Assembly: GCA_965200875.1 (NCBI GenBank)
Contig: OZ241456.1
Location: 992,001 to 1,056,000 of the forward strand
Direction: 5' to 3'
Source: Bdellovibrionales bacterium
Lineage (GTDB): Bacteria; Bdellovibrionota; Bdellovibrionia; Bdellovibrionales; UBA1609
DNA: 64,000 bases
How positions within the stretch are numbered: the stretch's first letter is position 1; each line of letters opens with the position of its first letter. The position numbers were made by a program, and so were the translations under genes. The notes beneath the pieces are model-generated. The model was not told where the DNA came from. It saw nothing but the letters and a program-made list of their open reading frames with translations, and did no database searches. Positions 4,542 through 22,552 of this stretch are shown here, one piece after another.

Positions 4542-4596
4542 CTTAAAAAAGAACCTCCTTTCAGCCTGTTTCTTTTGCCTTTTTGACAGAATTAAA

Positions 4597-5436: not shown

Positions 5437-5802
5437 AATAATCCTCCTGTTTTTTTGTTAAAATTCCTCTACTTGTCTGTCAATCTTGCACAGGCAGGAA
5501 TCTCCTGACTTTTGAGAAGATGTAACACAAGTGGTTGACTTAACTAAACGGCCTTATTCAAAGCCGACCAACACACAGATACTTAAGACTGATTTGTGAG
5601 CTGTGAAAGTTTATAAATAAAGGACTTTAAGTGTGGTTGCAATAATTTTTTAAAGATAGTGAAAACTTTACACTATTATGAAAAAAAGTACATACTTTGC
5701 ACTATCTCCTATCCTTTCAAAGCCTCATCCAATATAAAAAATTCCTGTCCATCAGGTTTTATCCTACCAGACTCTTCTCTATAATCATACTGGTTTATTG
5801 AT

Positions 5803-5901
5803 ATGGAAAATCTTACAAATCTCAAAGCTATATTGCATTCAAAACGTGCTAATATTTATTATTTGGAAAAATGCCGGATAATGCAAAAAGATGGAAGTTA
5901 A
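5803..5901 (+). pseudogene. Truncated, frameshifted copy of the cas1 5' end
   Basis: 5779-5926 nearly identical to 9407-9566; a 10-nt deletion gives MENLTNLKAILHSKRANIYYLEKCRIMQKDGS*. Confidence 0.92.
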
Positions 5902-5932
5902 CTGAAGATAAACAAAACAAAAAATAATTGAA

Positions 5933-7061
5933 ATGTGGAACTGAACAACGTTTTACGGCAAAATGAAGTATGTAAAAAGCTGTTTGCTCATACACAAAGT
6001 TAAATATTGTATTAAAAAAAAAACACCTTTAAGATATAAGAAATATTATCTTCACTCTGAGGTTTTATATGACAAAAACAACAAAAAAATTGCCTGTCGG
6101 GCATCACGATATATTTTTTAAAGCGTGCTATTCCAACCCCTGCTTTGCCAAGGAGTTGTTTCAGCTAGTTCTTTCTAAAGAGGAGTTAGCCATCTTTGAC
6201 TGGGAGAACCTCAAGGCTGAAAAAGACAGCTTTCAGGATCTAAGGGCAGACTTGGTTTTTTCTGTTCCGCTTAAAAATCAGCCAGGTAAGAAAGCCAAAC
6301 TTTGTTTGCTTTTAGAACATAAGTCTCGTTTCAGTCGCCGAATGTATCATCAGGTTCTTAAATACAAAACCCTTATTATAGGTAAGAGTCTGGAGAAAGT
6401 AGAGGATGATTGCCTTGTTATAGCATCTGTATTTTATCATGGAAAAGAACCTTGGAAGTGGGCAAAATCATTCAAAAAAGGACTTTGGGGGCGTATTTTG
6501 CCGGAAATTCCTTCTTCTTTGGAAAAGGATATGTTAGATTATGGGATAAGGGTTTTAGACACCCATGATCCCAAAGTGGAGAAAGCCATTTGTGACAAAA
6601 ATTTTAAGAGTCGTGGTTTTTTAAGTGCGTTAAAGAAAGTATGGTCTTTCAAAGCAGAAGAGAAGGAATTGAAAGAGATAGTTTCGTTATTTGATAACTG
6701 GACTGGTGACAAAGAAGATTTAGTACTAAGTGTGGGAGATTATTTTTGGTCGTCTGTTTCCGGTATGACAAAGGAATTATGGGAGAAGTTGGAACATGAG
6801 GCTGTTATTAAAGGTATTTTTTCAAAAGGAGGTTATATGAACATAAGAGAGCACATTAAAGAGGAAGGGCGACAAGAAGGTATGCAACAAGGTATGCAAC
6901 AGGGTATGCAACAGGGTATGCAACAGGGTCAAAAAGAGCTGATTTTAAAATTACTTAAAAATGGTGTGGATTTGCAGGTTCTTTGCAAAGGCACGGGACT
7001 TTCCGAAGAAGAAATTAAAAAACTTAATAACAGTGACTAAGAATGCCAAATAATTTTCTTT
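5933..7061 (+). repeat. Left copy of ~1.13 kb direct repeat (post-array sequence + rpn)
   Basis: Matches 20166-21306 apart from a few substitutions and one 12-bp repeat unit. Confidence 0.96.
6069..7040 (+). CDS. Rpn/YhgA-family PD-(D/E)XK nuclease ('transposase_31'-like), copy 1
   Basis: HHDIFFK, RADLVFS, LLLEHKS, VFYHG motifs; (GMQQ)n repeat; C-terminal TGLSEEEIKKL. Confidence 0.92.
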   Translation: MTKTTKKLPVGHHDIFFKACYSNPCFAKELFQLVLSKEELAIFDWENLKAEKDSFQDLRADLVFSVPLKNQPGKKAKLCLLLEHKSRFSRRMYHQVLKYKTLIIGKSLEKVEDDCLVIASVFYHGKEPWKWAKSFKKGLWGRILPEIPSSLEKDMLDYGIRVLDTHDPKVEKAICDKNFKSRGFLSALKKVWSFKAEEKELKEIVSLFDNWTGDKEDLVLSVGDYFWSSVSGMTKELWEKLEHEAVIKGIFSKGGYMNIREHIKEEGRQEGMQQGMQQGMQQGMQQGQKELILKLLKNGVDLQVLCKGTGLSEEEIKKLNNSD

Positions 7062-7134
7062 CAGGCGAGTTCAGTTTTAGGCACATCACGGCTGAAAGAC
7101 GTGCGCATGGCAAAATAAAGCTAGCCTCTCTCTG

Positions 7135-7268
7135 AATGGAAAAGAGTTGAGCAGTTGGCAATAGAAAGAAGTTTATTAAAAAGAGGAGGTTATATGGACA
7201 TAAGAGAAGAGATTAAATTAGTAGGTATACAAGAAGGCATGCAGAAAGGTCTAAGAGAAGGTATGCAA
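7135..7268 (+). pseudogene. 3' fragment of an rpn gene closely matching the copy at 52973-54055; keeps the internal RBS+ATG (ORF 7194-7448)
   Basis: WKRVEQLAIERSLLKRGGYMDIREEIKLVGIQEGMQKGLREG, near-identical DNA to ~53734-53867. Confidence 0.85.
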
Positions 7269-7489
7269 AGTAGATCGCTGACGGGTGAAAATGCCATTTT
7301 AGCAGGTTTATCGCTTAGTATGAAAAAGAATTTTGCTTTAGTCAGACATTGTGCTTTAATTGAGGGACATGAGTGTAAATTTTGTAATCGTGCCATACTT
7401 TTCTTTATTTTTGTCAAGCAGGCGTTGCGTTTTAATTGCGAGGCTTAAGGTTTTGGTTCCCTAGTTTTCTGAAGAGGTTATTTTTTAAT

Positions 7490-8212
7490 ATGTCTCAAAA
7501 ATACGCAAATCCACCTATAAAAGAAGCTGTTTTTGATTTTCAGGTGAGAGGGGGTAACCCTTTTAGCCAAAAATCCTATCAACAGTTTTTAGATAAAAAC
7601 GCTGGGTATGTTGTAGCCGGAAAGATGCGGGATGTAAATGTTTCTACAGAAACCGAGCTTGTAGAAGCAAAAACGGAACTCATCGGATATAGAGCTTCTA
7701 ATAAAAACAACACACAAATTGTGCAGTTCAAAAAAAATGGACTTAGTTTTAGCCAATTGGAACCATATAGTGGCTGGGACAAAAGCTATAAAGAAGCTTT
7801 AAAACTATGGCAAATATATTGTGAGGTTAGAAAGCCACAAACCATTACCAGACTCGCCGTTCGTTTTATCAATCGATTTCAAATTTCCGATATATTTACC
7901 GAACCTTCAGAGTATTTTAGTGGGTACATTAAATATGATAAAAGTATCTCTCCCACTTGGCATCAAATGTCTTATAAGCTCTTATTCTCACATAATCAAG
8001 GTATTAAATCACATATTATAAGTGATGCTTTAGTGAATCAACAGAACTCAAGTGTAAATATTCTTCTTGATATAGATGTTTTTTCGGATGGGCTGGCTTT
8101 GTCTGCGAAAGAAGTGCTTGGAGTGGAAAATGTTTTTAAAGTTCTTCGGCAAATAAAAAATAATATTTTTGAAAAAAGTATAACAGATAAAACAAAAGAT
8201 TTGATAAAATGA
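7490..8212 (+). CDS. TIGR04255-family-like protein
   Basis: N-terminal KYANPPIKEAVFD, PYSGW, ITRLAVRFINRF, ILLDIDVF and C-terminal KNNIFEKSIT motifs; ~240 aa; GAGG upstream of ATG 7490. Confidence 0.78.
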   Translation: MSQKYANPPIKEAVFDFQVRGGNPFSQKSYQQFLDKNAGYVVAGKMRDVNVSTETELVEAKTELIGYRASNKNNTQIVQFKKNGLSFSQLEPYSGWDKSYKEALKLWQIYCEVRKPQTITRLAVRFINRFQISDIFTEPSEYFSGYIKYDKSISPTWHQMSYKLLFSHNQGIKSHIISDALVNQQNSSVNILLDIDVFSDGLALSAKEVLGVENVFKVLRQIKNNIFEKSITDKTKDLIK

Positions 8213-8862
8213 CAACACCCTTGCAAAGCCCTGTTCATAATCAAATCCGCATTAATGTTTTGAATCTACTTCAAAACAAAGAAAATGTTTGGTGCATAAA
8301 TGGCAGATCGATATATCACAATTCAATGGAAAATTCAGTGGTGGGTGCTCCCTCTGAGTATTTAAGTCGCCAGAAGCTTAGAATGCCCGAAGAGGTAGTA
8401 GATACAAAGAAGTTTGTCATCGTAAGTATACCCTCTTATAGGTCACGGGGATATGAAGACACACTTCTTAGTGAAAGACCATTACAGTTTTATGATGAAA
8501 AACCATTACAAGATTTAGAACATAAAATTATACAAGTGCATGATGAGCATCAAACAGAAAATTGGGATGGCTATGGAGCTAAGCCCGTTCAAAATTTGTC
8601 ACAAGCTTTACACTTTGCTAAAGCACTGTTTCAAGAATCCAGGTTGTTTGTTGAAAAAGTGGATATTACTCCTGAAAATGACAGTGCTATTTGTTTTGAG
8701 TGGTTTTTATCTAATGAACAATATGTGGCTATATCAGTAAAAAATGACAAACTTATTTATCATTATCAATCAGGAGAGGGAAAAGGTTGTGGGGAAACAA
8801 ATTTTTTCGGCAAGCAGATGCTTTTTGAAAAGATAAAACAAATGGGTTATGGACTCAGTTAA
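8209..8862 (+). CDS. Hypothetical protein with ENWDGYGAKP motif
   Basis: 217-aa ORF, ATGA overlap with the upstream gene; NWDGYGA and ITPENDSAICFEW motifs. Confidence 0.75.
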   Translation: MTTPLQSPVHNQIRINVLNLLQNKENVWCINGRSIYHNSMENSVVGAPSEYLSRQKLRMPEEVVDTKKFVIVSIPSYRSRGYEDTLLSERPLQFYDEKPLQDLEHKIIQVHDEHQTENWDGYGAKPVQNLSQALHFAKALFQESRLFVEKVDITPENDSAICFEWFLSNEQYVAISVKNDKLIYHYQSGEGKGCGETNFFGKQMLFEKIKQMGYGLS

Positions 8863-8922
8863 TCTGTGGTCTTTTCAAAAAGTGAAATTTTAAGTTATTA
8901 AGTTTCAGATGAAGTTGGTATT

Positions 8923-9369
8923 ATGGTATTCAAAGTATTTAAAAAACAAAATATATTAAGCTCGATCGTGGAAGATGAAGAACCTTTGGCAAGATATATT
9001 TTTTCCAAGAGTCATTTTAGAAGAGCGAATGGCAGTATTAAATTTCAGGCTTTTATGCCTAACCTTAACCTTGTTAAGAAAACAGTTTCCGTAATCAGAC
9101 ATAAAGATTGTTCTGAAACTTGTCTTTTAAAAATAGGAAAAAATATGGCAACAAAAAGAGGTCACAGTTTAAAAGCTGTTTGTTCTCTATCTGCTAAAAA
9201 TGTGCGTTCTATAGATGGTTTGGATGTGGAGTCAGACACCAGCAGAGGACAGCACCGAAGGCATGCCAATATAATGGGCTTTAATAATTGGATTGATGCA
9301 AAAATCAGACAAATAGCCAAGGAGCTGGCTGAAAAAGCCGATTTATTAAATTTGTCTGATGAGCAATAG
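8923..9369 (+). CDS. Hypothetical protein, possibly ADP-ribosyltransferase-like fold
   Basis: 148-aa ORF with E-x-LARY, QAFMP, VSVIR, RHANI pattern; the fold call is inference. Confidence 0.65.
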   Translation: MVFKVFKKQNILSSIVEDEEPLARYIFSKSHFRRANGSIKFQAFMPNLNLVKKTVSVIRHKDCSETCLLKIGKNMATKRGHSLKAVCSLSAKNVRSIDGLDVESDTSRGQHRRHANIMGFNNWIDAKIRQIAKELAEKADLLNLSDEQ

Positions 9370-9432
9370 ATTATATAAGATGAATTGAAGTAATGTGAAC
9401 TAAAGCCTATAATCATATACTGGTTTATTGAT

Positions 9433-10380
9433 ATGGAAAATCTTACAAATCTCAAAGCTATATTGCATTCAAAACGTGCTAATATTTATTATTTGGAAAA
9501 ATGCCGGATAATGCAAAAAGATGGAAGAGTCTTATACTTAACTGAAGACAAACAAAACAAAAAATACTGGAATATTCCTATTGCTAATACCACTGTTATC
9601 CTTCTGGGAACTGGTACTTCCATTACTCAAGCCGCTGTTCGTATGCTGGTCAGTGCTGGAGTCATGATTGGATTTTGTGGAGGAGGAGGAACTCCTTTGC
9701 TGGCGGGCCATGAAATAGAGTGGCTTTCTCCTCAAAGTGAATATCGTCCTACGGAATACATGCAAGGCTGGATGTCTTTTTGGTTTAATGATTCCAAACG
9801 ATTAAATGTCGCTAAAATCATTCAGCTGAGTCGAGTAAAATTTATTAAAAAAGTTTGGGCCAATGATAAAGACTTAAAGGCAGAAGGATTTTATATTGAT
9901 GATATGGATTTCAGCTCAGCACTTAAGAAGTTTGAAACCACTATCTCCAAAGCAGATAGTGTAAGTAATTTACTGTTGATAGAGGGACAGATGGCTAAAG
10001 AGTTATATAAAGCTTCAGCAAAAAGAGTAAAACATAAAGAGTTTACCCGCGACCCTCAATCTGAAGATTTGGCAAATAATTTTTTAAATCATGGTAATTA
10101 TTTAGCCTACGGGTTAGCGGCAACGACTTTATGGGTGTTGGGTATTTCCCATAGTTTTGCGTTGATGCACGGAAAAACCCGGCGTGGTGCTTTGGTTTTT
10201 GATATTGCTGACTTAGTAAAGGATTCTTTGGTTCTTCCTTGGGCTTTCATTTGTGCGAAGGAAAAAATGAGCAATCAGGAATTTCGTCAACAATGTCTTC
10301 AGGCTTTTGCGCAACATAAAGCTCTTGATTATATGTTCAACAAAATTAAAGAAGTAGCTCTTCAGGATCATGGCTTATGA
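9433..10380 (+). CDS. cas1: Type I-F CRISPR-associated endonuclease Cas1
   Basis: ILHSKRANIYYLEKCR, WNIPIANTT, NNFLNHGNYLAYGLAA, HGKTRRGALVFDIADL. Confidence 0.98.
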   Translation: MENLTNLKAILHSKRANIYYLEKCRIMQKDGRVLYLTEDKQNKKYWNIPIANTTVILLGTGTSITQAAVRMLVSAGVMIGFCGGGGTPLLAGHEIEWLSPQSEYRPTEYMQGWMSFWFNDSKRLNVAKIIQLSRVKFIKKVWANDKDLKAEGFYIDDMDFSSALKKFETTISKADSVSNLLLIEGQMAKELYKASAKRVKHKEFTRDPQSEDLANNFLNHGNYLAYGLAATTLWVLGISHSFALMHGKTRRGALVFDIADLVKDSLVLPWAFICAKEKMSNQEFRQQCLQAFAQHKALDYMFNKIKEVALQDHGL

Positions 10381-13300
10381 TGGTTCTCTTTGTCTCTGAA
10401 TGTGAGAAAAATGCCATTAAAAAGACTTGCCGGGTATTGGATGCCTTTGCCAATAGAGTAGGTAGCAGAACATGGCAGACTGTGATTACAATGGAAGGAC
10501 TTTCAGCGGTGAAAACACTATTAAGCAAAACCGCTTCTAGGCATACTGCTGTTTCCTGTCATTGGATACGCCGGCGCAATTATTCTGAATTATTATGGAT
10601 AGTGGGCAATAAAAATAAATTTAATACACAAGGGGAAATTCCTGTAAATTTTACAGAGAAAGACATAATTAAACCAAAATGGGAAAATAACTGGCACTAT
10701 CTGCCTTTAATAAAAGCTCTGACAGCCCTTTCTGCTTTATTTCACGATTGGGGAAAAGCAAATCAGCATTTTCAGAATAAATTAAAAAATCCATCCAAGG
10801 TTGATCCGATACGTCATGAATGGGTTTCTTATATGCTTATAAATGCGTTTGTGCAAACAAGTGGTGATAATAAATCTGATGAAAAGTGGCTGACGGATTT
10901 GGCGAATGGAAAAATTGATGCAAGAAAAATCAAAGATATTTTAAAAAATAATACAGAACACTCCATTAACAAAACCCTACCCGGAGTGGCTGGTTTAATC
11001 AGCTGGGCTGTTATTACGCATCATAAACTGCCATATTTGCCTTTGGATAAAGCTAAAAATCATAGGGAGAATGAGCTAAAAAATATAAATACGCTTTTTG
11101 AAATTATATCAAAAAAATGGGGTTATATAAACCCAGTAGAGCAACAGGAACTTAAGTTTCCCAAAGGTTTTTTGGAAACTTCACCTTATTGGATAAAAAA
11201 ACTACAAAAGTGGGCCTTAAAAACAAAAAACTGTTTACCTTTATTGCAGGAATGTTTATCCAATGGAAGTTGGCCAGTTATTTTGCATTATACACGCTTG
11301 TCTCTAATGTTGGGGGATCACTTTTTTTCATCAAAAGACGCAAACGCAAAATGGCTAGGGAACGCTCAACTATATGCCAATACCAAAAATGTAAAAAATA
11401 AAAACACTAGGGAATATAAACAAAAATTGGATGAGCACCTAACAGGCGTTATGAAAGAAGCTTTAAATATTGCTCATGCGTTACCAAAGGTGGAGTCTCA
11501 ATTACAGAGCTTGCCTGCTCATAAAACCCACATACTAAAAAAGAAAAGTGCCAATAAGTTCAGATGGCAGGACAAAGTTGTGACTACTATAGAGAATTGG
11601 AAAGAAAACACAAATGTATTCAAAACAAATAATCAATATGGTTTTTTTGGCATCAATATAGCCAGCACAGGGACTGGTAAAACTTTTGCCAATGCAAAAA
11701 TTATGTTGTCTCTTTTACAAAATGAAAATGGTTTGCGGTATACTTTAGCACTTGGATTAAGAACACTAACATTGCAGACAGGTGACGAATATAGAAATCG
11801 ATTAAAGCTTGATAAAAATGATATAGCCGTGCAGATAGGCTCAAAAGCGATTATGGAATTACATGAACAAAAAACACAAACAAACATTAAACAAGAACTT
11901 GAAGAGAATATTAACCAAGGTTCAGAGTCCTTGGAAGAACTGTTGCAAGAAGAAATAGATTACGATGATAGCGAATTGGAACAAACAGCTTTTGCCATTG
12001 CTTTAAAAACTGAAAAACAAAAAAAGTTTCTTTATGCACCTGTTCTGGTATGCACTATTGATCTTATAATGTCTGCTACAGAAACCAAAAGAGGTGGGCG
12101 ATATATTCCACCTTGCCTGCGACTTATGTCCTCTGATTTGGTGATCGATGAAATTGATGATTTTAACCAAGGTGATTTAATTGCCATAGGGAGATTAATA
12201 TTCTTAACCGGAATGTTGGGGAGAAAAGTTTTGCTTTCATCTGCCACCATTCCCCCTGCATTGGCAGAAGGATACTTCAATGCTTATCAAAAAGGCTGGT
12301 TGTTGTTTTGTAAAACCAGACCAGCCAGTAAAATAGTGGCCTGCGCATGGGTTGATGAATTTGGAGCTAAGGTTGAAAATATTATTCCACCTTCTGGAAA
12401 TCAAAGTATATCATCTGCTGAAATGTATCGAGCACAACATAAACAATTTGTGGAAAAAAGAGTTAAAAAGCTTAAGACAAAACCTCCAAGAAGAAAAGGT
12501 GAAATCATACGAATTAAAAATATAGAAGTCTCTCAAAATAAGCCTGTTAATAAAGAGAAAAATAACACACCTAAAGAAGAAAAATATTTTCAGTGCATAA
12601 AATCTGCGATTTTAAATATGCATGAAAGACATAAATTCCAAGATAAACAATCACAAAAATCGATAAGCATCGGTTTGGTGCGAATGGCAAATATTAATCC
12701 TTGTATTAAGCTATCAAAGTACTTATTACAAACCAGTTTTTCAACAGACACAGCTATTAAAATAATGACCTACCACAGCCGGCAAATAATGCTGTTACGA
12801 AGTGAACAGGAAAAATATTTGGATGGTATTTTAAAAAACAGAGGTGAAAGTTTAAAAGATCCCGTTATCCGCAAGCACATTGATAACACAAGTGCTGACA
12901 ATATAATATTTGTTGTTTTATCCACTCCGGTCGAAGAGGTGGGGCGCGACCATGATTTTGACTGGGCTGTTGTGGAGCCTTCCTCTCTTAGATCTATTAT
13001 CCAATTAGCAGGACGAGTCAGAAGACACCGAGAAGGTGCTGTTCAATCTGCAAATGTGGCTATTATGCAATATAATCTTAAAGCCATTCAGCAAGGCAAT
13101 ACCCAGCCAGTTTATTGTCGACCAGGTTATGAAAGTGCAAAATTCAAACTGGAAACCCATAATTTAACAAAGCTATTGGATGAAAAAGAAATAGCCAATC
13201 GAATAGATGCTGTTCCACGTATTCAACAACCCGAAAAATTGATTGATTGGAAACAGAGTCTGGCGGAACTGGAACATAAAGTTATTGGTCATTTCCTTAC

Positions 13301-13703
13301 CAACTATACACAAAACGGCCCCGACAGTTTACAAGGTTATATTGAACAGTATTGGCATTTAACAGCTTTGCCTCAAATTCTCAGTCCTTTTAGAAAACAA
13401 CAACCCAGCATCAACCTCTACCTTATACATGAAAATGATGACTTTTATTTTGCCGAGAAAGATAATCGAGGCCACCCAGTAGAAAAAAGTGATATTTATA
13501 AAATAACATATCAGCCTGAAGACACTAATAACCGATTTTGGCTGAACAGAAATTATAAAAAATGCTTAAAAAAACAGGCTGAAAACCAAAACCTTGATCT
13601 AAAAAGTGTTTCATTACGATACGGTGAACTAAGCTTACTGGAAAAAGATGTGTCTCGTGATAAAAAATATCTTGACCAGTTTGGATTGATATATTCAGAT
13701 TAA
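10377..13703 (+). CDS. cas3: Type I-F Cas2-Cas3 fusion (HD nuclease/helicase)
   Basis: Cas2-like N-terminus (MMVLFVSECEK...RTWQTVITMEGL), HDWGK, ASTGTGKT, DEIDDF, IIQLAGRVRRHR. Confidence 0.97.
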   Translation: MMVLFVSECEKNAIKKTCRVLDAFANRVGSRTWQTVITMEGLSAVKTLLSKTASRHTAVSCHWIRRRNYSELLWIVGNKNKFNTQGEIPVNFTEKDIIKPKWENNWHYLPLIKALTALSALFHDWGKANQHFQNKLKNPSKVDPIRHEWVSYMLINAFVQTSGDNKSDEKWLTDLANGKIDARKIKDILKNNTEHSINKTLPGVAGLISWAVITHHKLPYLPLDKAKNHRENELKNINTLFEIISKKWGYINPVEQQELKFPKGFLETSPYWIKKLQKWALKTKNCLPLLQECLSNGSWPVILHYTRLSLMLGDHFFSSKDANAKWLGNAQLYANTKNVKNKNTREYKQKLDEHLTGVMKEALNIAHALPKVESQLQSLPAHKTHILKKKSANKFRWQDKVVTTIENWKENTNVFKTNNQYGFFGINIASTGTGKTFANAKIMLSLLQNENGLRYTLALGLRTLTLQTGDEYRNRLKLDKNDIAVQIGSKAIMELHEQKTQTNIKQELEENINQGSESLEELLQEEIDYDDSELEQTAFAIALKTEKQKKFLYAPVLVCTIDLIMSATETKRGGRYIPPCLRLMSSDLVIDEIDDFNQGDLIAIGRLIFLTGMLGRKVLLSSATIPPALAEGYFNAYQKGWLLFCKTRPASKIVACAWVDEFGAKVENIIPPSGNQSISSAEMYRAQHKQFVEKRVKKLKTKPPRRKGEIIRIKNIEVSQNKPVNKEKNNTPKEEKYFQCIKSAILNMHERHKFQDKQSQKSISIGLVRMANINPCIKLSKYLLQTSFSTDTAIKIMTYHSRQIMLLRSEQEKYLDGILKNRGESLKDPVIRKHIDNTSADNIIFVVLSTPVEEVGRDHDFDWAVVEPSSLRSIIQLAGRVRRHREGAVQSANVAIMQYNLKAIQQGNTQPVYCRPGYESAKFKLETHNLTKLLDEKEIANRIDAVPRIQQPEKLIDWKQSLAELEHKVIGHFLTNYTQNGPDSLQGYIEQYWHLTALPQILSPFRKQQPSINLYLIHENDDFYFAEKDNRGHPVEKSDIYKITYQPEDTNNRFWLNRNYKKCLKKQAENQNLDLKSVSLRYGELSLLEKDVSRDKKYLDQFGLIYSD

Positions 13704-13739
13704 GTTTTCGTTGTATTTGATATCGCTTTGGAGTTTGTT

Positions 13740-15044
13740 TTGGATAAAAATATAATAGATTTTGTCAAAGATTTTAAGGATAAGAACCTTGAAAAGTATT
13801 TAAAAAAAGCTCTTAATGGCGCAAATAAAAAAGTAGAAGGATTTGCAGAGCACTTGGAAGATTTTAAAAAGGCTCTGAATGGCCTCAATAAAAAAGAGGC
13901 AGAAGAGCTTTTTTTCTCTGTTTTAAAATATTGGCTAATGGAAAAAAGTCAACTGGCAAAACATTGTAAAAGAGCCAGCCATATTGGAAAATTTACGCAT
14001 CCGGATGCAGATCAAAAATCAGCTGTATTCTTTACAGGTAACAAAAATGTGGATGGTTTTCTGAGAACTGGAAATATAAACACAAAGCTGGATTTTGTGA
14101 GCAGTGCCACTTATGCGAGACTGACAAAGTTTTTAAGCCTGCCTTTAAAAAATCAACAGAACAACAGTATTCTGGAACATTTGGAAAAAAACAGCGAGTA
14201 CATTCAGAATCAGTTTTCATTCTTGAGCGAAACTGAGTACAAAAATATCAGAGAAAACCTGTTAAAGTCCACAAAAACTGATGATGAAATCACTGGCAGT
14301 GAAATCAAACAGGTATATTTTCCTGTTGATAACAGCTATCATTTACTATCTATCCTTACCCCTTCCGGGATTCTCTTAGCTTTAAAAGAAAAAATAAAGG
14401 ATATGCAAATTTCACCGGAATCGAAAAAAGCTAAAGAAGCTAAAAAGAAAGCAGAACAAAGTGAAACCGGCTTTTCTGATATTTACGATCTTACTCTAAT
14501 ATCTTACGGTGGCAGTAATGCACAAAACATAAGTGCTTTATTAGCTCCAAAGCTTAAAAACTCTTATCTGCTATCAAGTATTCCTCCACAAACACATAAG
14601 AAAAAAATCAGATTACCAAAATATGACTTTTTTAAAGATAGCCTCTACATAAAAGGTTTTAAGGATATTTTTCATAGTTTTCATAAACTGCAACAAGCTG
14701 ACTGGAATAATCAAAAAATACGGACAACTCGTGATAATACGATAAAATTTTTTTTGGATCAAGTAGTGGATAGTATGTGGCTTCTGCGTAAAGAAGAACT
14801 AGGCTGGAGTGCTTCCAGAAATAAGTTACCTCTTTATCAAAAAAAATGGCTTGATAATTATTATAAATCAGAAAGAGAATCATCGGCATTTGATAGCAAC
14901 ATGGATAAAGTGATTGACGATATTGCACGAAACTTCATTTTTTCTTACGAGAAAGCCCTTGGCAAAAACAAAATATCTTTGAGTGACCAAATGTTAAAAC
15001 ACATTAAAAATACAATAGAAACCAACAAAGAATCTTTAAGGTAA
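13740..15044 (+). CDS. csy1: Type I-F Cas8f/Csy1
   Basis: SHIGKFTHPDA, KQVYFPV, YHLLSILTPS, YGGSNAQNIS; probable TTG start at 13740 after GGAG. Confidence 0.93.
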   Translation: MDKNIIDFVKDFKDKNLEKYLKKALNGANKKVEGFAEHLEDFKKALNGLNKKEAEELFFSVLKYWLMEKSQLAKHCKRASHIGKFTHPDADQKSAVFFTGNKNVDGFLRTGNINTKLDFVSSATYARLTKFLSLPLKNQQNNSILEHLEKNSEYIQNQFSFLSETEYKNIRENLLKSTKTDDEITGSEIKQVYFPVDNSYHLLSILTPSGILLALKEKIKDMQISPESKKAKEAKKKAEQSETGFSDIYDLTLISYGGSNAQNISALLAPKLKNSYLLSSIPPQTHKKKIRLPKYDFFKDSLYIKGFKDIFHSFHKLQQADWNNQKIRTTRDNTIKFFLDQVVDSMWLLRKEELGWSASRNKLPLYQKKWLDNYYKSERESSAFDSNMDKVIDDIARNFIFSYEKALGKNKISLSDQMLKHIKNTIETNKESLR

Positions 15045-15050
15045 ATTATT

Positions 15051-15983
15051 ATGCTTAGACATTTCATTCTCATAAAAAATATTAAAGTCCAAAAAGCTAA
15101 TGCGCTTTCCAGCCCTTACACAATTGGGTTTCCGGCTATTACCTCTTGGCTGGGGGCGGTTCATGCTCTTCAAAGATATGTAAAAACCAGCCATGAAAAC
15201 TTATCTGAAGTAAAGTTTAAAGCTGTAGGAATCACATGCCATAAATTTCACTTAAACATCTTTAAGGAAAATTATGATAATAATATTATTTTATCAAAAA
15301 ATCCTCCAGCTACGAGAAAAGATGAAAAGTTTGTTAAGAACGAAAAGTCTCAAAACAAAGCTTTCATACCATTAGCCACTTGTGACTTAGATTGTTCTCT
15401 TCTGATTGAACATAACATACAAAATAATAACTGGCCTTTCCTGCGTGAGGCTGTGAATAAAAGCTTGCACGCTAAAATAAAGATAGCTGGAGGTGATATT
15501 CTATCTTTCGAAAAAGTGAATGAAGATGAAATGTTTTTAATAGATGAGCATGACGAATCGGAATTGCGAAAGTTAACCCGAAAGCTTATGCCAAGCTATC
15601 TCATTAAAGAGCGCAGGGACTTAATGATTGATTCCATGAAAGAAAATAATTCTGTTGATGCTATTGACGCTTTGTTAGATCATCTCAAAGTTACGCACTC
15701 TTCCGAGAAAGACAACGAAGGGAATATATACTGGGAGCAAAATCGAAAAGAGCTAGGGTGGATTGTACCTATTGCAACTGGTTTTCAAGGTATTACTGAA
15801 ATTAAAAAAGTAAAGGGACAAAGAGATTTTAATGTTCCTCATCGCTTTGCGGAATCTATTGTCACACTGGGTGAGTTTATCATGCCATATCGCATTCAAC
15901 ATCTGGATGAAATGCTATGGCATTACTGTGTTAACCCGGATAGTAATTTATATATTTGTCAACAAAAAAATAATAACAATTAA
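15051..15983 (+). CDS. csy2: Type I-F Cas5f/Csy2
   Basis: ANALSSPYTIGFPAITSWLGAVHALQR, IAGG, GWIVPIATGFQ, HRFAES. Confidence 0.95.
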   Translation: MLRHFILIKNIKVQKANALSSPYTIGFPAITSWLGAVHALQRYVKTSHENLSEVKFKAVGITCHKFHLNIFKENYDNNIILSKNPPATRKDEKFVKNEKSQNKAFIPLATCDLDCSLLIEHNIQNNNWPFLREAVNKSLHAKIKIAGGDILSFEKVNEDEMFLIDEHDESELRKLTRKLMPSYLIKERRDLMIDSMKENNSVDAIDALLDHLKVTHSSEKDNEGNIYWEQNRKELGWIVPIATGFQGITEIKKVKGQRDFNVPHRFAESIVTLGEFIMPYRIQHLDEMLWHYCVNPDSNLYICQQKNNNN

Positions 15984-15994
15984 GGAGGAACAAA

Positions 15995-17080
15995 ATGAAA
16001 AAAATGAAAAAAAATGGACCACCATCTGTATTGGCATTTGAAAAAAACCTAGTGCCTTCAGATGGATTTTTTTATGGAGTAAGTTGGGACAACAGGCATA
16101 ATACGGAAAAATCCAAACCTTTAAAAGTAACAGAGAAAGCTGTAAGAGGCACTATCTCACACAGAATAAATAGCACAAAACAAGAAAAATTGTCTGCTGA
16201 TATTCAAAATCCCAACCTTCAAACAGTTGATGTTTGTCACTTGGGTTTGGAGCAGGACACTTTAAAGTTGGCATTTACCCTTAAAGTGTTGGGAGGCATA
16301 GAAAAACCCTCTGCTTGCAACAACCCTGACTTTGCTCAAAAATGTACTAAAGCCCTTAAAAAATATACTGGAGAATACGGCTTTTTAAAATTAGCTAATC
16401 GCTATGCGCATAATTTAACTTGTGGCAGGTTTTTATGGAGAAATCGAGTTGGTGCTGAAAAAATTGAAGTTCGTATAAAAGTGCTTGGTTCATCCGAAGC
16501 TGAAAGTGATAACATCTCTGAAGAATGGATTGTATTTTCTGCACAGGAAATGGATATGAATGATTTTGATTCAAGCGCGCAAGATGAAAACTTAAAAAAA
16601 ATATCTGAAAAAATTGCCAAAGCCTTTTCCGGTGACAGAAATTTTCTGTTGTTGGAAGTGGAAGCTTATGTGCTATTAGGTAGTAAACAGGAAGTATACC
16701 CAAGTGAAGAATTGGTATTGGAGGACAAAAAAATCTCTAAAAGCTCAAAAAGCAAAGTATTATATTCTGTTGATGAGATTGCCGCCATGCACTCACAAAA
16801 AATTGGAAATGCTTTGCGAACCATTGATACATGGTATCCTGAATTTAATGAACATCAAGTTGGACCTATTGCTATAGAACCGTATGGAGCGGTGACTAAC
16901 TTGGGTAAAGCTTACCGGAATCCCAAAGAAAAATGTGATTTCTACAGCCTGTTTGATAAATGGATATTAACAGATGATAATCTATCAGAAGAAGAGCAAC
17001 ACTATGTGATTGCCGTGCTAATACGAGGTGGTGTTTTCGGAAAAGCATCTGATGACAAAAAATCAAAAGGAGAAGAATAA
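15995..17080 (+). CDS. csy3: Type I-F Cas7f/Csy3
   Basis: SVLAFEK, EKAVRGTIS, PNLQTVD, FLWRNR, QEVYPSEE, HSQKIGNALRTIDTWY, LIRGGVFG. Confidence 0.97.
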   Translation: MKKMKKNGPPSVLAFEKNLVPSDGFFYGVSWDNRHNTEKSKPLKVTEKAVRGTISHRINSTKQEKLSADIQNPNLQTVDVCHLGLEQDTLKLAFTLKVLGGIEKPSACNNPDFAQKCTKALKKYTGEYGFLKLANRYAHNLTCGRFLWRNRVGAEKIEVRIKVLGSSEAESDNISEEWIVFSAQEMDMNDFDSSAQDENLKKISEKIAKAFSGDRNFLLLEVEAYVLLGSKQEVYPSEELVLEDKKISKSSKSKVLYSVDEIAAMHSQKIGNALRTIDTWYPEFNEHQVGPIAIEPYGAVTNLGKAYRNPKEKCDFYSLFDKWILTDDNLSEEEQHYVIAVLIRGGVFGKASDDKKSKGEE

Positions 17081-17661
17081 TGAAGAACTATCAGGAAATC
17101 ACCTTACGCCCGGATACTGAGATTAACAAATATTTCTTGTGGCAAAAGGTATTCAAAAAAGTGCATTTAAGATTTGTGGACTTAAAAGATGATAATGGGA
17201 TGATCAGCATTGGTATTGGTTTTCCAGAATACCAATATAATGATCAAGTAGTGTGCCTTGGGGAAAAATTAAGATTATTTGCCTTGGATGAAGACACATT
17301 AAACAATTGCAATATACAAAAAATCTTGAGTCATTTTTCTGATTATATTCATTGGACAGGCACTCGTGAAGTGCCTGAAAAATGTAGCCATGCCATATAC
17401 TTGAGACAACAGCCTCAGTCCAGCATGCTCAGAACAGCTCGGCGAAAAGCCAAACGAGAGGGCCTTTCGTATGATGAAGCTTTAAAGAAACTAAAAGGTT
17501 TTAATGAGCAAAAAATAAAAGCACCATATATTAATATTAAAAGCCACAGTTCAGGACATCAATTTCGATTGTTTATTGTTAAAAAAACAGTGTCGCAAGC
17601 TGTAACAGGACTATTTAATTGCTATGGGCTGAGTACTCAATCAACAGTTCCTGAGTTTTGA
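17080..17661 (+). CDS. cas6f: Type I-F Cas6f/Csy4 endoribonuclease
   Basis: YQEITL, VH, FPEY, LGEKLRLFA, FRLFI, FNCYGLS...TVPEF. Confidence 0.95.
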   Translation: MKNYQEITLRPDTEINKYFLWQKVFKKVHLRFVDLKDDNGMISIGIGFPEYQYNDQVVCLGEKLRLFALDEDTLNNCNIQKILSHFSDYIHWTGTREVPEKCSHAIYLRQQPQSSMLRTARRKAKREGLSYDEALKKLKGFNEQKIKAPYINIKSHSSGHQFRLFIVKKTVSQAVTGLFNCYGLSTQSTVPEF

Positions 17662-17734
17662 CCTTTATTCAACCGGATTCCCGTCCAGATCATCTTTACG
17701 GATCAACAGTTTCTGAGTTTTGACCTTTATTCAA
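17640..17734 (+). repeat. 33-bp direct repeat (17640-17672, 17702-17734; 1 mismatch) around a 29-bp insert at the cas6f end/leader
   Basis: ATCAACAGTT(C/T)CTGAGTTTTGACCTTTATTCAA occurs twice. Confidence 0.9.
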
Positions 17735-17855
17735 TCTCTCTATTTTTTAGATCAATAAAATCAAGCACTTACAAAAGTTTATAAAACACAAGGTTATTTT
17801 AAGAATAATTAATGTAAATTACTGTTATCTTTGATAAAATGTATTATCAAGGTCT
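17662..17855 (+). promoter_or_regulatory. CRISPR leader with IHF consensus site (AATCAAGCACTTA, 17759-17771) and a second IHF-like element (TAAATTACTGTTAT, ~17815-17828)
   Basis: AT-rich stretch between cas6f and repeat 1; WATCAANNNNTTR match flanked by ACCTT...AAGGT inverted motifs, as known for I-F leaders. Confidence 0.8.
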
Positions 17856-20162
17856 GTTTACTGCCGCACAGGCAGCTTAGAAAATACAATACGAGTCGGT
17901 ATTGTTCTAACAGCGGTTTACTGCCGCACAGGCAGCTTAGAAAAGTTATATCTTTGTGAAGTTCCGTAAGCAAACGTTTACTGCCGCACAGGCAGCTTAG
18001 AAAACCATATCTTCCCTGAATAACCGGACCTATAAGTTTACTGCCGCACAGGCAGCTTAGAAAAGCTTATGAGTCTTTGTTTTCCGCCGTAATAAGTTTA
18101 CTGCCGCACAGGCAGCTTAGAAATCCAACATGGTTTATAAAAAGAGTGTACTTGTGTTTACTGCCGCACAGGCAGCTTAGAAAAACAAAGCCAGCCGGAC
18201 AGCTTAAGGAGGAACGTTTACTGCCGCACAGGCAGCTTAGAAATAACAGCCATTTTTGAAACATCCTCTTTTGACGTTTACTGCCGCACAGGCAGCTTAG
18301 AAATCTATCTGCACACCGGCTCTGGGTGTGTATAAGTTTACTGCCGCACAGGCAGCTTAGAAATTCCGCCTGGAGGGTCTGGTGGATAAAGGTGGGTTTA
18401 CTGCCGCACAGGCAGCTTAGAAATGAATATAAACGCCGATAAAATTAAGCCTTGTGTTTACTGCCGCACAGGCAGCTTAGAAAACTTGTTTGGTGCTGGT
18501 GTGAGTGAGGAATTTGTTTACTGCCGCACAGGCAGCTTAGAAAACCAACATATTTATCATTTTAATTCTCCTTTTGTTTACTGCCGCACAGGCAGCTTAG
18601 AAAAGGACATTTTTTCAAGAACCGCGGATTATAATGTTTACTGCCGCACAGGCAGCTTAGAAAAGTTGACCAATTTGATGCTGTACTTCCTGATAGTTTA
18701 CTGCCGCACAGGCAGCTTAGAAAAAACCCTTACTCTGAGCTAAAAATATCAAAAAGTTTACTGCCGCACAGGCAGCTTAGAAAGGCTGTATTAAGCGATG
18801 TTGAAATTGATTAAAGTTTACTGCCGCACAGGCAGCTTAGAAATTTAAAGTTAAGCTATACCTTGGTTTTCTATTGTTTACTGCCGCACAGGCAGCTTAG
18901 AAAAGAGTACGGCAGGTTTTAATATGCTTATACGCGTTTACTGCCGCACAGGCAGCTTAGAAAAGATTATTCCACTCAGCAAAGCTCCACTACATGTTTA
19001 CTGCCGCACAGGCAGCTTAGAAATGCAAAGGGTTCAACATAATGTAGTTTTTTATGTTTACTGCCGCACAGGCAGCTTAGAAATGTATATGTGGGCTCGG
19101 AATCATCAAGATTGTGTTTACTGCCGCACAGGCAGCTTAGAAATAAAAGATTTTGTTGCCTAAAAGCTCCAGTTAGTTTACTGCCGCACAGGCAGCTTAG
19201 AAATTTTAATGTGGCCTTTATAGCTCCTGTTTCAGGTTTACTGCCGCACAGGCAGCTTAGAAAAGTTTAAGGAAATGAGTAAAAAAGATCAATTTGTTTA
19301 CTGCCGCACAGGCAGCTTAGAAATATTCAATGGAGTGGGCAAAAAAAATAAAAAAGTTTACTGCCGCACAGGCAGCTTAGAAATTAAAAACCACCTGGCA
19401 AAAGCTGTTTGAATGGTTTACTGCCGCACAGGCAGCTTAGAAATTGATACACGCGCAACCGGTACAATCACTTTTGTTTACTGCCGCACAGGCAGCTTAG
19501 AAATAAAAAGAAGTCTCCCCCGAAAAGCCTCTGTGTTTACTGCCGCACAGGCAGCTTAGAAAAAACCCAGGCCACATAGGCCGTTTTAAAAAATGTTTAC
19601 TGCCGCACAGGCAGCTTAGAAACATATCCGGGAAGGTGGACTTGGTAAATCAGTGTTTACTGCCGCACAGGCAGCTTAGAAATTTAGTGGCTCTGTTATT
19701 GATTCTGTTTTCATGTTTACTGCCGCACAGGCAGCTTAGAAATCAAGTTATTTATCCAGAATCCGATCAGTATTGTTTACTGCCGCACAGGCAGCTTAGA
19801 AAAAAACACCATTGATAATCAAACAAATCTTTAAGTTTACTGCCGCACAGGCAGCTTAGAAATCAACAGCCAGAGGTACAAGCACTTTACAGACGTTTAC
19901 TGCCGCACAGGCAGCTTAGAAATTGACATGCCATTTGCACACACTCAACTTCGTGTTTACTGCCGCACAGGCAGCTTAGAAATTCCTGTCATACGAACAG
20001 GAGTACATTTATACGTTTACTGCCGCACAGGCAGCTTAGAAATTTGTTAAGGTTAAAAAAAAAGAGGACAGTCTGTTTACTGCCGCACAGGCAGCTTAGA
20101 AAAATATCAGCAGCACTCTTACCCTTAAGTGTGTGTTTACTGCCGCACAGGCAGCTTAGAAA
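17856..20162 (+). CRISPR. Type I-F CRISPR array: 39 identical 28-bp repeats GTTTACTGCCGCACAGGCAGCTTAGAAA, 38 spacers (32 nt; one of 31 nt at 19504-19534)
   Basis: 60-bp periodicity read directly; CTGCC-GCACA-GGCAG hairpin typical of Cas6f substrates. Confidence 0.99.
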
Positions 20163-20165
20163 GTG

Positions 20166-21306
20166 ATGTGGGGCTGAACAACGTTTTACGGCAAAATGAA
20201 GTATGTAAAAAGCTGTTTGCTCATACACAAAGTTAAATATTGTATTAAAAAAAAAACACCTTTAAGATATAAGAAATATTATCTTCACTCTGAGGTTTTA
20301 TATGACAAAAACAACAAAAAAATTGCCTGTCGGGCATCACGATATATTTTTTAAAGCGTGCTATTCCAACCCCTGCTTTGCCAAGGAGTTGTTTCAGCTA
20401 GTTCTTTCTAAAGAGGAGTTAGCCATCTTTGACTGGGAGAACCTCAAGGCTGAAAAAGATAGCTTTCAGGATTTAAGGGCAGACTTGGTTTTTTCTGTTC
20501 CGCTTAAAAATCAGCCAGGTAAGAAAGCCAAACTTTGTTTGCTTTTAGAACATAAGTCTCGTTTCAGTCGCCGAATGTATCATCAGGTTCTTAAATACAA
20601 AACCCTTATTATAGGTAAGAGTCTGGAGAAAGTAGAGGATGATTGCCTTGTTATAGCATCTGTATTTTATCATGGAAAAGAACCTTGGAAGTGGGCAAAA
20701 TCATTCAAAAAAGGACTTTGGGGGCGTATTTTGCCGGAAATTCCTTCTTCTTTGGAAAAGGATATGTTAGATTATGGGATAAGGGTTTTAGACACCCATG
20801 ATCCCAAAGTGGAGAAAGCCATTTGTGACAAAAATTTTAAGAGTCGTGGTTTTTTAAGTGCGTTAAAGAAAGTATGGTCTTTCAAAGCAGAAGAGAAGGA
20901 ATTGAAAGAGATAGTTTCGTTATTTGATAACTGGACTGGTGACAAAGAAGATTTAGTACTAAGTGTGGGAGATTATTTTTGGTCGTCTGTTTCCGGTATG
21001 ACAAAGGAATTATGGGAGAAGTTGGAACATGAGGCTGTTATTAAAGGTATTTTTTCAAAAGGAGGTTATATGAACATAAGAGAGCACATTAAAGAGGAAG
21101 GTCGACAAGAAGGTATGCAACAGGGTATGCAACAAGGTATGCAACAGGGTATGCAACAGGGTATGCAACAGGGTCAAAAAGAGCTGATTTTAAAATTACT
21201 TAAAAATGGTGTGGATTTGCAGGTTCTTTGCAAAGGCACGGGACTTTCCGAAGAAGAAATTAAAAAACTTAATAACAGTGACTAAGAATGCCAATTAATT
21301 TTCTTT
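20166..21306 (+). repeat. Right copy of ~1.13 kb direct repeat (post-array sequence + rpn)
   Basis: Matches 5933-7061 (start offset 14233). Confidence 0.96.
20302..21285 (+). CDS. Rpn/YhgA-family PD-(D/E)XK nuclease, copy 2
   Basis: Protein identical to 6069-7040 except for one extra GMQQ unit. Confidence 0.92.
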   Translation: MTKTTKKLPVGHHDIFFKACYSNPCFAKELFQLVLSKEELAIFDWENLKAEKDSFQDLRADLVFSVPLKNQPGKKAKLCLLLEHKSRFSRRMYHQVLKYKTLIIGKSLEKVEDDCLVIASVFYHGKEPWKWAKSFKKGLWGRILPEIPSSLEKDMLDYGIRVLDTHDPKVEKAICDKNFKSRGFLSALKKVWSFKAEEKELKEIVSLFDNWTGDKEDLVLSVGDYFWSSVSGMTKELWEKLEHEAVIKGIFSKGGYMNIREHIKEEGRQEGMQQGMQQGMQQGMQQGMQQGQKELILKLLKNGVDLQVLCKGTGLSEEEIKKLNNSD

Positions 21307-21355: not shown

Positions 21356-22552
21356 CTATTTTAAAAGACGATAAAATTGTTGGTTGGTTTTTCCTTCTGT
21401 CTCAATGATGTTTTTATCGACCATATCTTTTAAATCTCTTTGCAAGGTTCTTTTAGTGATTGTAGATACTGTTTTTCCAACTTTTTGTATTTTCTTTTTT
21501 AATTCTTCAAAATCTTTTGGAAGGAGTTTTCCATTTTCCAGAATATGCTCAATGATTAACCCTTGTCTTTGTGATAAATTATGATTTTGTACCAAAGCAT
21601 CTTTAAAGATAACTTTTTTTCCAATATCCATAACTTCATTCATTTGAAATAAAAAACCTTTCACAAAATACTCCAACCAACCTGTCATATCCATATTATT
21701 GTTTCTGACAGACTGAATGGCTTGGTAAAAATTTTGTCTGTCTTTATCGTAATACTCACTGATAGAAAAGAGCTTTTTAAAATCATAATCTTTTTGATAA
21801 AGAAAAGCTGTGCAGAGAAGTCGCGATGTGCGCCCATTACCATCTACAAAAGGGTGAATATGCACAAACTGAAACTGAATAATACCACTTTTTAAAACAG
21901 GATGAATATCCGATTCTGTATTTATCCAATCCACAAAATCTTTCATAAGAGCCGGTACTTCCTTCGGCTTAGGAGGTATATAAATAATTTCTTTGGTGAC
22001 AGCATTACCAATATAATTTTGTATATTTCTATATCTTCCTGGCCGAGCACTCCCTCCCCGCACCCCTTTAACCAGTTCTTTGTGAATTTTCTTAATAAGA
22101 GATTCTGTAATTATTTTTTGCAAAGCTTGTTTTGAATTACTTTTTTCTTTATTAAATTTACTTATACTGATCTTTTTTGAGTGTTCATGTTTCACATTTT
22201 CCTTTGAAGGTAGAAAAACCTTGGAAGTAGCAGACTTTTCAAAACCTATGTAGTTTAAAACCAAGTTAAAAGCGTCTCTGTAGTTTTGAACTTCTTTTAT
22301 ATCCTCTTTATTGGCCGTGGGGACTTTTTTTCCTTTCAGTATTTGTTTTGATTGTTCAAAAGTTAACTGTGTTCCTTCTATATGAGTAGTGTGATGAGCT
22401 TCCAACAAAAAGCTTTTTTGACTCATCTTTTTTATCCATTGATTTGATAAATTAGTAGCTTTTAAAAAACCTCTGGCTTGCTCAATTTTCATAAGATGAT
22501 TAAGCATGGGCTGGGTGACAGTAAACTGTGGAGAAAATAATTTTCTGCTCAT
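21356..22552 (-). CDS. Fic-domain protein with C-terminal HTH
   Basis: HPFVDGNGRTSR catalytic motif; N-terminal HTTHIEG inhibitory-type motif; RTLQRDLKDMV winged-HTH-like end. Confidence 0.93.
   Translation of the reverse strand: MSRKLFSPQFTVTQPMLNHLMKIEQARGFLKATNLSNQWIKKMSQKSFLLEAHHTTHIEGTQLTFEQSKQILKGKKVPTANKEDIKEVQNYRDAFNLVLNYIGFEKSATSKVFLPSKENVKHEHSKKISISKFNKEKSNSKQALQKIITESLIKKIHKELVKGVRGGSARPGRYRNIQNYIGNAVTKEIIYIPPKPKEVPALMKDFVDWINTESDIHPVLKSGIIQFQFVHIHPFVDGNGRTSRLLCTAFLYQKDYDFKKLFSISEYYDKDRQNFYQAIQSVRNNNMDMTGWLEYFVKGFLFQMNEVMDIGKKVIFKDALVQNHNLSQRQGLIIEHILENGKLLPKDFEELKKKIQKVGKTVSTITKRTLQRDLKDMVDKNIIETEGKTNQQFYRLLK

What the first reader, a model, noticed from the sequence alone, without database searches (positions are those of the whole stretch)
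5933..21306. Whole type I-F CRISPR-Cas locus bracketed by ~1.13 kb direct repeats that each carry an Rpn nuclease gene
Seen: 5933-7061 and 20166-21306 are near-identical, starting 14,233 bp apart. They differ by synonymous SNPs (GAC/GAT, CTA/TTA, GGG/GGT) and 4 versus 5 GMQQ units, which argues against an assembly artefact. Known: Rpn/YhgA proteins were described as recombination-promoting nucleases and later as anti-phage toxins. Inference: recombination between the repeats would excise or amplify a ~14.2 kb unit carrying the triad, cas genes, array and one rpn. This would be a composite-transposon-like defence cassette without IS ends, near a tRNA-Arg integration hotspot.
Basis: partly seen in the sequence, partly recalled or inferred. 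Interest (0 to 1): 0.8.

Follow-up and report, generated by a model that had tools for sequence, protein, structure and literature searches.

The report
Duplication scar beside a CRISPR locus
The two matching nuclease genes on either side of this CRISPR-Cas locus are real, but the left one is most likely what is left of a collapsed second copy of the locus, in a genome littered with such genes, rather than one end of a mobile cassette.

Summary
The repeats are real: 5933-7061 and 20166-21306 are 98.4% identical, and each carries an intact rpn gene. The mobile-cassette reading is not supported. The left repeat is directly preceded by a copy of the first ~45 codons of cas1 (5779-5932 = 9407-9572). 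So the left side reads 'cas1 start, gap, post-array rpn', the intact locus with ~10.6 kb missing. This piece sits inside a shattered rpn of another subfamily. A third near-identical rpn lies 300 kb away behind a three-repeat CRISPR stub. The genome has 41 rpn matches, and congeners have up to 75, with ragged ends. I found no terminal inverted repeat, target duplication, att site or nearby integrase. None of 13 cas1 regions from congeners has direct rpn brackets, and the triad occurs without the I-F system. The best reading is a local duplication of cas1-to-rpn followed by collapse, in a defence island built by accretion. The repeats remain a passive substrate for RecA deletion. The genes fit known Rpn toxin-antitoxins, with an internal antitoxin start and 4 versus 5 GMQQ units. 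A speculative twist is that deletion would orphan the 4-unit toxin and so protect the CRISPR locus from loss.

The parts
4468..4542 (+). tRNA-Arg(TCT); left edge of the variable region
   Evidence: found beside nhaA in 13 of 14 congeners; no att-like duplicate in the window
4597..5436 (-). Multi-copy gene for a small Gly/Ala-rich protein; paralogues at C1:1484k (next to an rpnB gene), 707k, 456k and 1429k
5600..5782 (+). Serially deleted 5' relic of an rpnB-subfamily locus: intergenic piece 5600-5732, rpnB upstream piece 5717-5748, rpnB coding piece ~5750-5782
   Evidence: matches to C1:1484220-1484088, 1483822-1483793, 1483421-1483361
5779..5932 (+). cas1 5' stub, a copy of 9407-9572 with 2-nt and 10-nt deletions; stops after 32 codons; joined to the rpnB piece at a 4-nt microhomology
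   Evidence: (D11)
5933..7061 (+). Left repeat: copy of the post-array segment
6069..7040 (+). rpnA copy 1 (323 aa, 4 GMQQ); internal AGGAGG + ATG at 6837 gives a predicted 67-aa RpnS
7063..7115 (+). Degenerate stump of a dispersed hairpin-forming repeat (33 hits in the genome)
7136..7269 (+). 3' piece of the rpnB gene (95.5-98.5% to six rpnB paralogues), cut off by the triad module
7288..9375 (+). Three-gene module (TIGR04255 protein 7436-8212, ORFs 8209-8862 and 8923-9369), also found in 3 of 14 congeners that lack the I-F cas1
9433..17661 (+). Complete type I-F operon: cas1, cas2-3, csy1, csy2, csy3, cas6f; Cas3 HD, Walker A and Walker B motifs present
17856..20163 (+). CRISPR array, 39 repeats of 28 nt and 38 distinct spacers; last repeat perfect and directly abutting the rpn upstream region; no self-targeting spacer found
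20166..21306 (+). Right repeat (the inferred source copy)
20302..21285 (+). rpnA copy 2 (327 aa, 5 GMQQ); internal start at 21070 gives a predicted 71-aa RpnS
21356..22552 (-). Fic-domain gene (PADLOC SoFic), outside the right repeat; part of the same defence island

Best explanation
The repeats are the by-product of a recent local duplication in a defence island, not the ends of a mobile element. Inferred earlier order: tRNA-Arg, Gly-rich gene, rpnB, triad, cas1...array, rpnA, fic. The block from the cas1 -10 box to just past rpnA (9407-21306) was copied into the rpnB gene about 3.6 kb upstream. The copy then lost ~10.6 kb between cas1 codon ~45 and the array end, either by later microhomology deletion or during a template-switching copy; these two cannot be told apart. 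The rpnA gene survived intact, plausibly because an Rpn toxin-antitoxin gene is selected or hard to lose. Each rpn is predicted to make a long nuclease toxin and, from an internal start, a short antitoxin. The repeats have no dedicated recombinase; RecA could delete (more likely) or amplify the 14.2 kb between them. Shown: the sequence mosaic, the collinearity and the missing end signals. Inferred: the order of events, selection on rpnA, Rpn activity and any actual deletion.
For: The cas1 stub and the left repeat are adjacent and collinear with the two ends of the intact locus, and similarly little diverged apart from their junctions. rpnB pieces flank them in gene order and orientation, and match the paralogous 'Gly-rich gene + rpnB' locus at C1:1484k. 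All of 5600-7061 has a second copy elsewhere in the genome. A third rpnA copy keeps a CRISPR stub upstream, so rpnA copies drag array-side DNA along. Congener G009 holds an I-F locus collapsed by serial deletions, with the cas1 start kept and broken near the same codon. rpn is expanded: 41 matches in this genome, and 13 of 14 congeners have matches, up to 75. Paralogue pairs share ragged ends, as Zhong et al. 2023 (PMC10400941) report. Of 13 cas1 regions from congeners, none has a direct repeat of >=200 bp and >=85% bracketing the cas genes. The intact I-F locus of G011 has no rpn within 40 kb. None of 70 loci of related cas1/cas6 has an rpn hit.
Against: No strain of the same species was available, so neither the intermediate nor the starting state was seen. 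Random scatter alone would rarely put rpn pieces at both ends (about 0.002 by a crude estimate), so the local-copy step is needed. In G009 the collapsed I-F relic is also followed, 187 bp after its last repeat, by an rpn piece of another subfamily on the opposite strand. rpn pieces occur in 6 of the 13 cas1 regions, so some real attraction between rpn and CRISPR loci is possible. The junction at 5932/5933 has only imperfect microhomology. No listed contig bridges the left junctions, though the table was cut.
Confidence: 0.7

Rival explanations
1. Piecemeal copying: the cas1 stub and the left rpnA arrived in separate small ectopic copying or gene-conversion events, and no full second locus ever existed.
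For: The region is full of short copied pieces (fic 21920-22015 at 23104-23199; 17640-17672 at 17702-17734). The repeat's extent, gene plus ~136 bp upstream and ~21 bp downstream, is typical of dispersed rpn paralogue pairs.
Against: Two independent pieces would have to land adjacent, in the order and orientation of the two ends of one locus. G009 shows that whole I-F loci do collapse this way.
Confidence: 0.12
2. Mobile or amplifiable defence cassette: the 14.2-kb unit excises as a circle through the rpn repeats and re-enters at another rpnA, by RecA or helped by Rpn.
For: There are 1.1 kb of 98.4% direct homology and recA is present. A third rpnA target exists. E. coli Rpn overproduction promotes RecA-independent recombination (PMC5350276, passages). 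I-F cas1 is patchy in the genus (3 genomes of 15 with close matches, each at a different site).
Against: No end signals, att site or recombinase. The cargo parts travel separately. No second bracketed locus among 13 cas1 regions, and no empty site in 14 congeners. The cas1 stub outside the 'unit' is left unexplained. Zhong et al. found no evidence that Rpn proteins transpose.
Confidence: 0.1
3. Misassembly: the left side is a chimera of reads from co-occurring strains or from the 701-kb paralogous locus.
For: This is a metagenome-type genome with many near-identical paralogues. No listed contig spans the stretch.
Against: The copies carry private differences. X5 contigs break exactly at the duplicated cas1 start and support the right exit. 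The stub has its own deletions, which no assembler would invent.
Confidence: 0.05
4. Rpn-associated CRISPR transposon of the kind proposed by Rybarski et al. 2021, with Cascade guiding Rpn-mediated transfer.
For: An Rpn gene directly follows a CRISPR array, and a mini-array with variant repeats precedes the third copy.
Against: Cas3 and Cas1/2 are present with intact motifs. The array is long. No self-targeting match was found for 38 spacers, the mini-array spacer or the trailer.
Confidence: 0.02

Closest known systems
Rpn/YhgA (PF04754, COG5464) toxin-antitoxin genes with intragenic antitoxin RpnS (Zhong et al. 2023, PMC10400941; Kingston et al. 2017, PMC5350276)
   Same: Same family; internal ribosome site and start; variable 4-aa repeats beginning 14 residues after the internal Met (paper: 8-20); orphan C-terminal copies; ragged ends without inverted repeats or target duplication; clustering with defence genes; spread by direct duplication.
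   Different: Copy number is higher (up to 75 matches, pieces included, vs 26 copies cited for one Bacillus strain). Lys stands where E. coli RpnA has Gln84, and Q84K was inactive in RpnA. One pair happens to bracket a complete I-F system.
Type I-F CRISPR-Cas (cas1, cas2-3, csy1-3, cas6f)
   Same: Gene order, family hits, 28-nt repeat and 32-nt spacers.
   Different: The trailer end has no degenerate repeat and abuts rpn. Csy1 scores below the NCBIfam cut-off but passes Pfam.
Composite or pseudo-compound transposons and repeat-mediated amplification units (recalled, not from a call)
   Same: Cargo between two long direct repeats, open to homologous recombination.
   Different: The repeats are not IS elements: no transposase of a known IS family, no terminal inverted repeats, no target duplication and no fixed ends.
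Putative Rpn-associated non-Tn7 CASTs (Rybarski et al., bioRxiv 10.1101/2021.08.16.456562)
   Same: An rpn gene next to a CRISPR-Cas locus.
   Different: Those have nuclease-dead Cas12a or Cas3-less I-E Cascade, and some have self-targeting spacers. This locus has Cas3, Cas1/2 and no self-targeting spacer.

Membership tests
Rpn/YhgA toxin-antitoxin | Transposase_31 / TIGR01784 domain | tested here: met
   PF04754 76.6 bits (cut-off 21); TIGR01784 52.3 (cut-off 52.1)
Rpn/YhgA toxin-antitoxin | PD-(D/E)XK catalytic residues | tested here: inconclusive
   D14, D61, E83 and K85 are invariant in 5 aligned copies. They match RpnA D11, D63, E82, Q84 by motif spacing only; no direct alignment to RpnA was made, and Q84K inactivated RpnA
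Rpn/YhgA toxin-antitoxin | Internal ribosome-binding site and start for a small C-terminal protein | tested here: met
   AGGAGG + ATG at 6837 and 21070; a similar signal in 12 of 12 long paralogues of this genome; translation itself not shown
Rpn/YhgA toxin-antitoxin | Variable 4-aa repeats in the first RpnS helix | tested here: met
   4, 5, 5 and 11 GMQQ units in the four closest copies
Rpn/YhgA toxin-antitoxin | RpnL toxicity, neutralisation by RpnS, phage defence | not testable with these tools
   needs expression tests
Type I-F CRISPR-Cas | cas1f, cas2-3 fusion, csy1-3, cas6f and an I-F array | tested here: met
Composite transposon | Flanking modules with terminal inverted repeats and fixed ends | tested here: not met
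   no inverted ends at six candidate boundary pairs, by inspection; paralogue ends vary from -56 to -471 relative to the N-terminal HD motif and up to +693 past the stop
Composite transposon | Target-site duplication | tested here: not met
   outer flanks share no direct repeat
Composite transposon | Same unit at different sites, or an empty site in relatives | tested here: inconclusive
   not found in 14 congeneric species, but no conspecific strain genome was available
tRNA-targeted integrative island | Integrase and duplicated tRNA end (att) | tested here: not met
   PF00589 hits only at C1:439,785 and 1,733,526; the longest tRNA-Arg duplicate in the window is a 13-nt match inside tRNA-Gln
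Rpn-associated putative CAST | Interference-dead effector (no Cas3 or dead nuclease) | tested here: not met
   full-length Cas2-3 with HD, Walker A and Walker B motifs
Rpn-associated putative CAST | Self-targeting spacer near the locus | tested here: not met
   40 candidate guides scanned against the genome; best matches 25 of 32 or short seeds, apart from the trailer matching its own copy

The most novel reading that the evidence does not exclude
The mismatched pair acts as an accidental addiction lock on a CRISPR-Cas locus. In E. coli RpnC, an antitoxin with one 4-aa unit more or fewer does not neutralise the toxin (PMC10400941, Fig. 4D text). About 84% of the shared homology lies upstream of the GMQQ tract. 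Most deletions would therefore keep the 5-unit gene and remove the only 4-unit antitoxin found in the genome (1 of 14 internal-start motifs), leaving 4-unit toxin unopposed. Repeat-number divergence between duplicated rpn genes would then guard the DNA between them, and the rpn expansions of this genus could stabilise accessory DNA in the same way.
Probability: 0.07. Interest if true: 0.7.

Novelty: new member of a known kind. Interest (0 to 1): 0.27.

Why it matters
As read here it is ordinary: known parts and a duplication scar. It is a clean caution that long direct repeats around cargo need not be element ends. It also shows CRISPR loci being copied and collapsed in a small-genome, probably sponge-associated Bdellovibrio-like genus. 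Two things could matter more. The first is the size of the rpn expansion in this genus, whose mode of spread is unexplained. The second is the testable idea that 4- versus 5-unit copies punish deletion of the DNA between them, which would give the variable Rpn repeats a role beyond phage defence.

Tried and rejected
Contig depth as a sign of cells lacking the segment: in X5 the three listed inner contigs have depth 12.1-13.7, against 16.7-18.1 to the left and 14.5-17 to the right. X6, the same sample, does not show this, and the tool states that depth is no share of cells, so it is inconclusive. The joint 7269 to 21105 has only 22 letters on one side and is explained by rpnB paralogues; contigs cannot show a crossover inside a repeat anyway. 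Self-targeting or regulatory mini-array: no convincing target; the mini-array spacer has no exact match in the viral contigs. Fixed ends of a mobile rpn module: rpnB copies in this genome mostly end 17-18 nt past the stop, but ends vary across 52 loci from four genomes. Promoter and terminator scan: at chance level. PDB search with rpn: nothing. Atlas searches for the two unnamed triad genes: only unnamed clusters. The scan's earlier notes by place, words and sequence held nothing on this locus. Limit of the cas1 survey: the profile came from 26 sequences of this lineage and only 28 of 70 loci include array repeats, so distant rpn genes or far array ends may be missed.
Full report
Observation. 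The two segments are as described: 5933-7061 and 20166-21306, direct, 98.4% identical, 14,233 bp apart. They differ at six single positions and by one 12-nt GMQQ unit, and the three coding changes are synonymous. Both ORFs are Rpn/YhgA genes. Between them lie a TIGR04255-headed three-gene module, a complete type I-F operon with intact Cas3 motifs and a 39-repeat array. The window lies on a 1.83-Mb contig of a two-contig genome. Runs holding the DNA include four labelled sponge metagenome. The only cas6 relative in the genome collection is titled Bdellovibrionales. Contigs of run X5, perhaps the source sample, agree letter for letter and break where the cas1 start is duplicated. Misassembly is therefore unlikely but not excluded.

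The duplication does not begin at 5933. The 154 bp before it (5779-5932) are a copy of 9407-9572, the -10 region and first ~45 codons of cas1, with two small deletions. The left side thus reads cas1 start, then the sequence that follows the last CRISPR repeat, then rpnA: the intact locus minus about 10.6 kb. Further left, 5600-5782 is a serially shortened copy of a locus at C1:1484k, where the same Gly-rich gene faces an rpn of a second subfamily (rpnB). The last piece is rpnB coding sequence, joined to the cas1 stub at a 4-nt microhomology. To the right of the left rpnA come a stump of a dispersed repeat and then the 3' part of rpnB (7136-7269, 98.5% to the same C1:1483k gene). The stub and left rpnA therefore sit inside a broken rpnB. 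The triad is a separate module (7288-9375 matches G003 at 75-78%). A third rpnA at C1:701.6k has the identical upstream segment and three CRISPR repeats in front of it.

Background rate. This genome has 41 rpn matches, or 33 merged pieces by a stricter search, and rpn pieces account for many of its long repeats. Of 14 congeners, 13 have matches, up to 75. Across 52 loci from four genomes, paralogue pairs share ragged ends, and the extent of our pair is typical. Random scatter alone would rarely bracket this locus so closely (about 0.002 by a crude estimate), which is why a local copy is needed.

Relatives. A close I-F cas1 is found in 2 of 14 congeners, each far from nhaA. G011 has an intact locus with no rpn in 40 kb. 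G009 has a relic collapsed by serial deletions that keeps the cas1 start. Of 13 cas1 regions from congeners, none has a direct repeat of >=200 bp and >=85% around the cas genes. Six contain rpn pieces. One (G009, 800-834 kb) has an inverted 498-bp fragment pair around cas and array, and the G009 relic has an rpn piece 187 bp after its last repeat. These last points leave room for a real tendency of rpn to cluster with CRISPR loci, which Zhong et al. report for defence genes generally. None of 70 loci of related cas1/cas6 (830 kb; 28 with array repeats; one may repeat a congener locus) has an rpn or triad hit. The triad occurs in three congeners without the I-F cas1. tRNA-Arg lies beside nhaA in 13 of 14 congeners, but in none is nhaA near bioD. 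The block usually found there lies 200 kb away in this genome, so the site is a rearrangement breakpoint with no visible empty allele. There is no att duplicate, inverted end or target duplication, and no integrase or resolvase nearby. recA is present.

Mechanism. Most likely (0.70) the block 9407-21306 was copied into the neighbouring rpnB and collapsed, afterwards or during copying, and rpnA was the only part kept whole. The mosaic and the collinearity are shown; the sequence of events and selection on rpnA are inferred. The resulting repeats can be used by RecA, so loss of triad, cas and array is a real risk, but nothing suggests a dedicated or recurrent mobility. The rivals are piecemeal copying (0.12), a mobile or amplifiable cassette (0.10), misassembly (0.05) and an Rpn-CAST (0.02).

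The genes. Each rpn has a strong internal ribosome site and ATG (6837, 21070) ahead of the GMQQ tract, predicting 67- and 71-aa RpnS proteins. This is the anatomy of the Rpn toxin-antitoxins of Zhong et al. 2023 (PMC10400941; parts 1-3 of 5 of the text and further passages read). That paper also reports no inverted repeats or target duplications, variable ends, arrays formed by direct duplication, and repeat-number-specific neutralisation. I did not view its supplement, whose Fig. S1B on duplication types may bear on this case. Candidate catalytic residues match E. coli RpnA by spacing (PMC5350276, passages), but activity is untested. The locus fails the defining features of the putative Rpn-CASTs of Rybarski et al. 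(bioRxiv 10.1101/2021.08.16.456562, passages).

Novelty. Eight paper searches (listings and abstract starts only, apart from the three papers above) showed no report of an rpn-bracketed CRISPR locus or of rpn expansion in this lineage. The library lacks most subscription papers. The arrangement may be unreported, but it is explained by known processes acting on known parts. The boldest reading not excluded (0.07) is that the 4- versus 5-unit mismatch makes most deletions lethal by orphaning the 4-unit toxin. That needs an antitoxin shorter-lived than the toxin, which has not been shown for Rpn; the words 'addict' and 'post-segregational' do not occur in the Zhong text. Verdict: observation confirmed, interpretation partly supported, new member of a known kind, interest 0.27.

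Noticed in passing
G000:C1:701586-701733 (L001), minus strand: Mini CRISPR array of three variant repeats and two identical spacers directly upstream of a third rpnA (11 GMQQ), followed by an orphan rpnA C-terminal copy with 5 GMQQ; no cas genes nearby.
   Followed up: partly
Genus-wide; order-wide: Large rpn expansion: 13 of 14 congeners have matches, up to 75. PF04754 is found in only 13 of 201 genomes of the order, most of them with many matches.
   Followed up: partly
G009:C1:1031145-1033110 (L027): Type I-F locus collapsed to about 1.2 kb (cas1 and cas2-3 pieces, two repeats), with an rpn piece 187 bp beyond on the opposite strand.
   Followed up: partly
window 7288-9375; G003, G005, G008 (L046-L048): Conserved three-gene module headed by TIGR04255, patchily present, sits near type I-F cas here and near another cas1 in G008; no paper in the library names TIGR04255. 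Possibly an undescribed defence module.
   Followed up: partly
G000:C1:1782279-1797717: Two direct copies of a 1256-bp transposase-bearing element 14,186 bp apart (about seven near-identical copies in the genome): a more conventional composite-transposon candidate.
   Followed up: no
   Followed up: partly
window 4542 onward vs L031-L044: The gene block that lies downstream of tRNA-Arg in 7 of 14 congeners is at C1:790-796 kb here, so this site is a rearrangement breakpoint.
   Followed up: partly
window 5787-5897 and 9417-9527: A second, nested direct repeat (111 nt, identical, 3,630 bp apart); recombination here would remove the left rpnA and the triad but keep the cas operon.
   Followed up: no
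window 52940-54055: Intact rpnB-subfamily gene (371 aa) with a 36-nt echo of its own coding sequence just downstream.
   Followed up: partly
window 59115-62342 and 42210-44063: A 1075-aa protein ending in about ten 33-aa ankyrin-like repeats, and a protein with a PPAPAT repeat plus leucine-rich repeats (labels by eye, not from a call).
   Followed up: no
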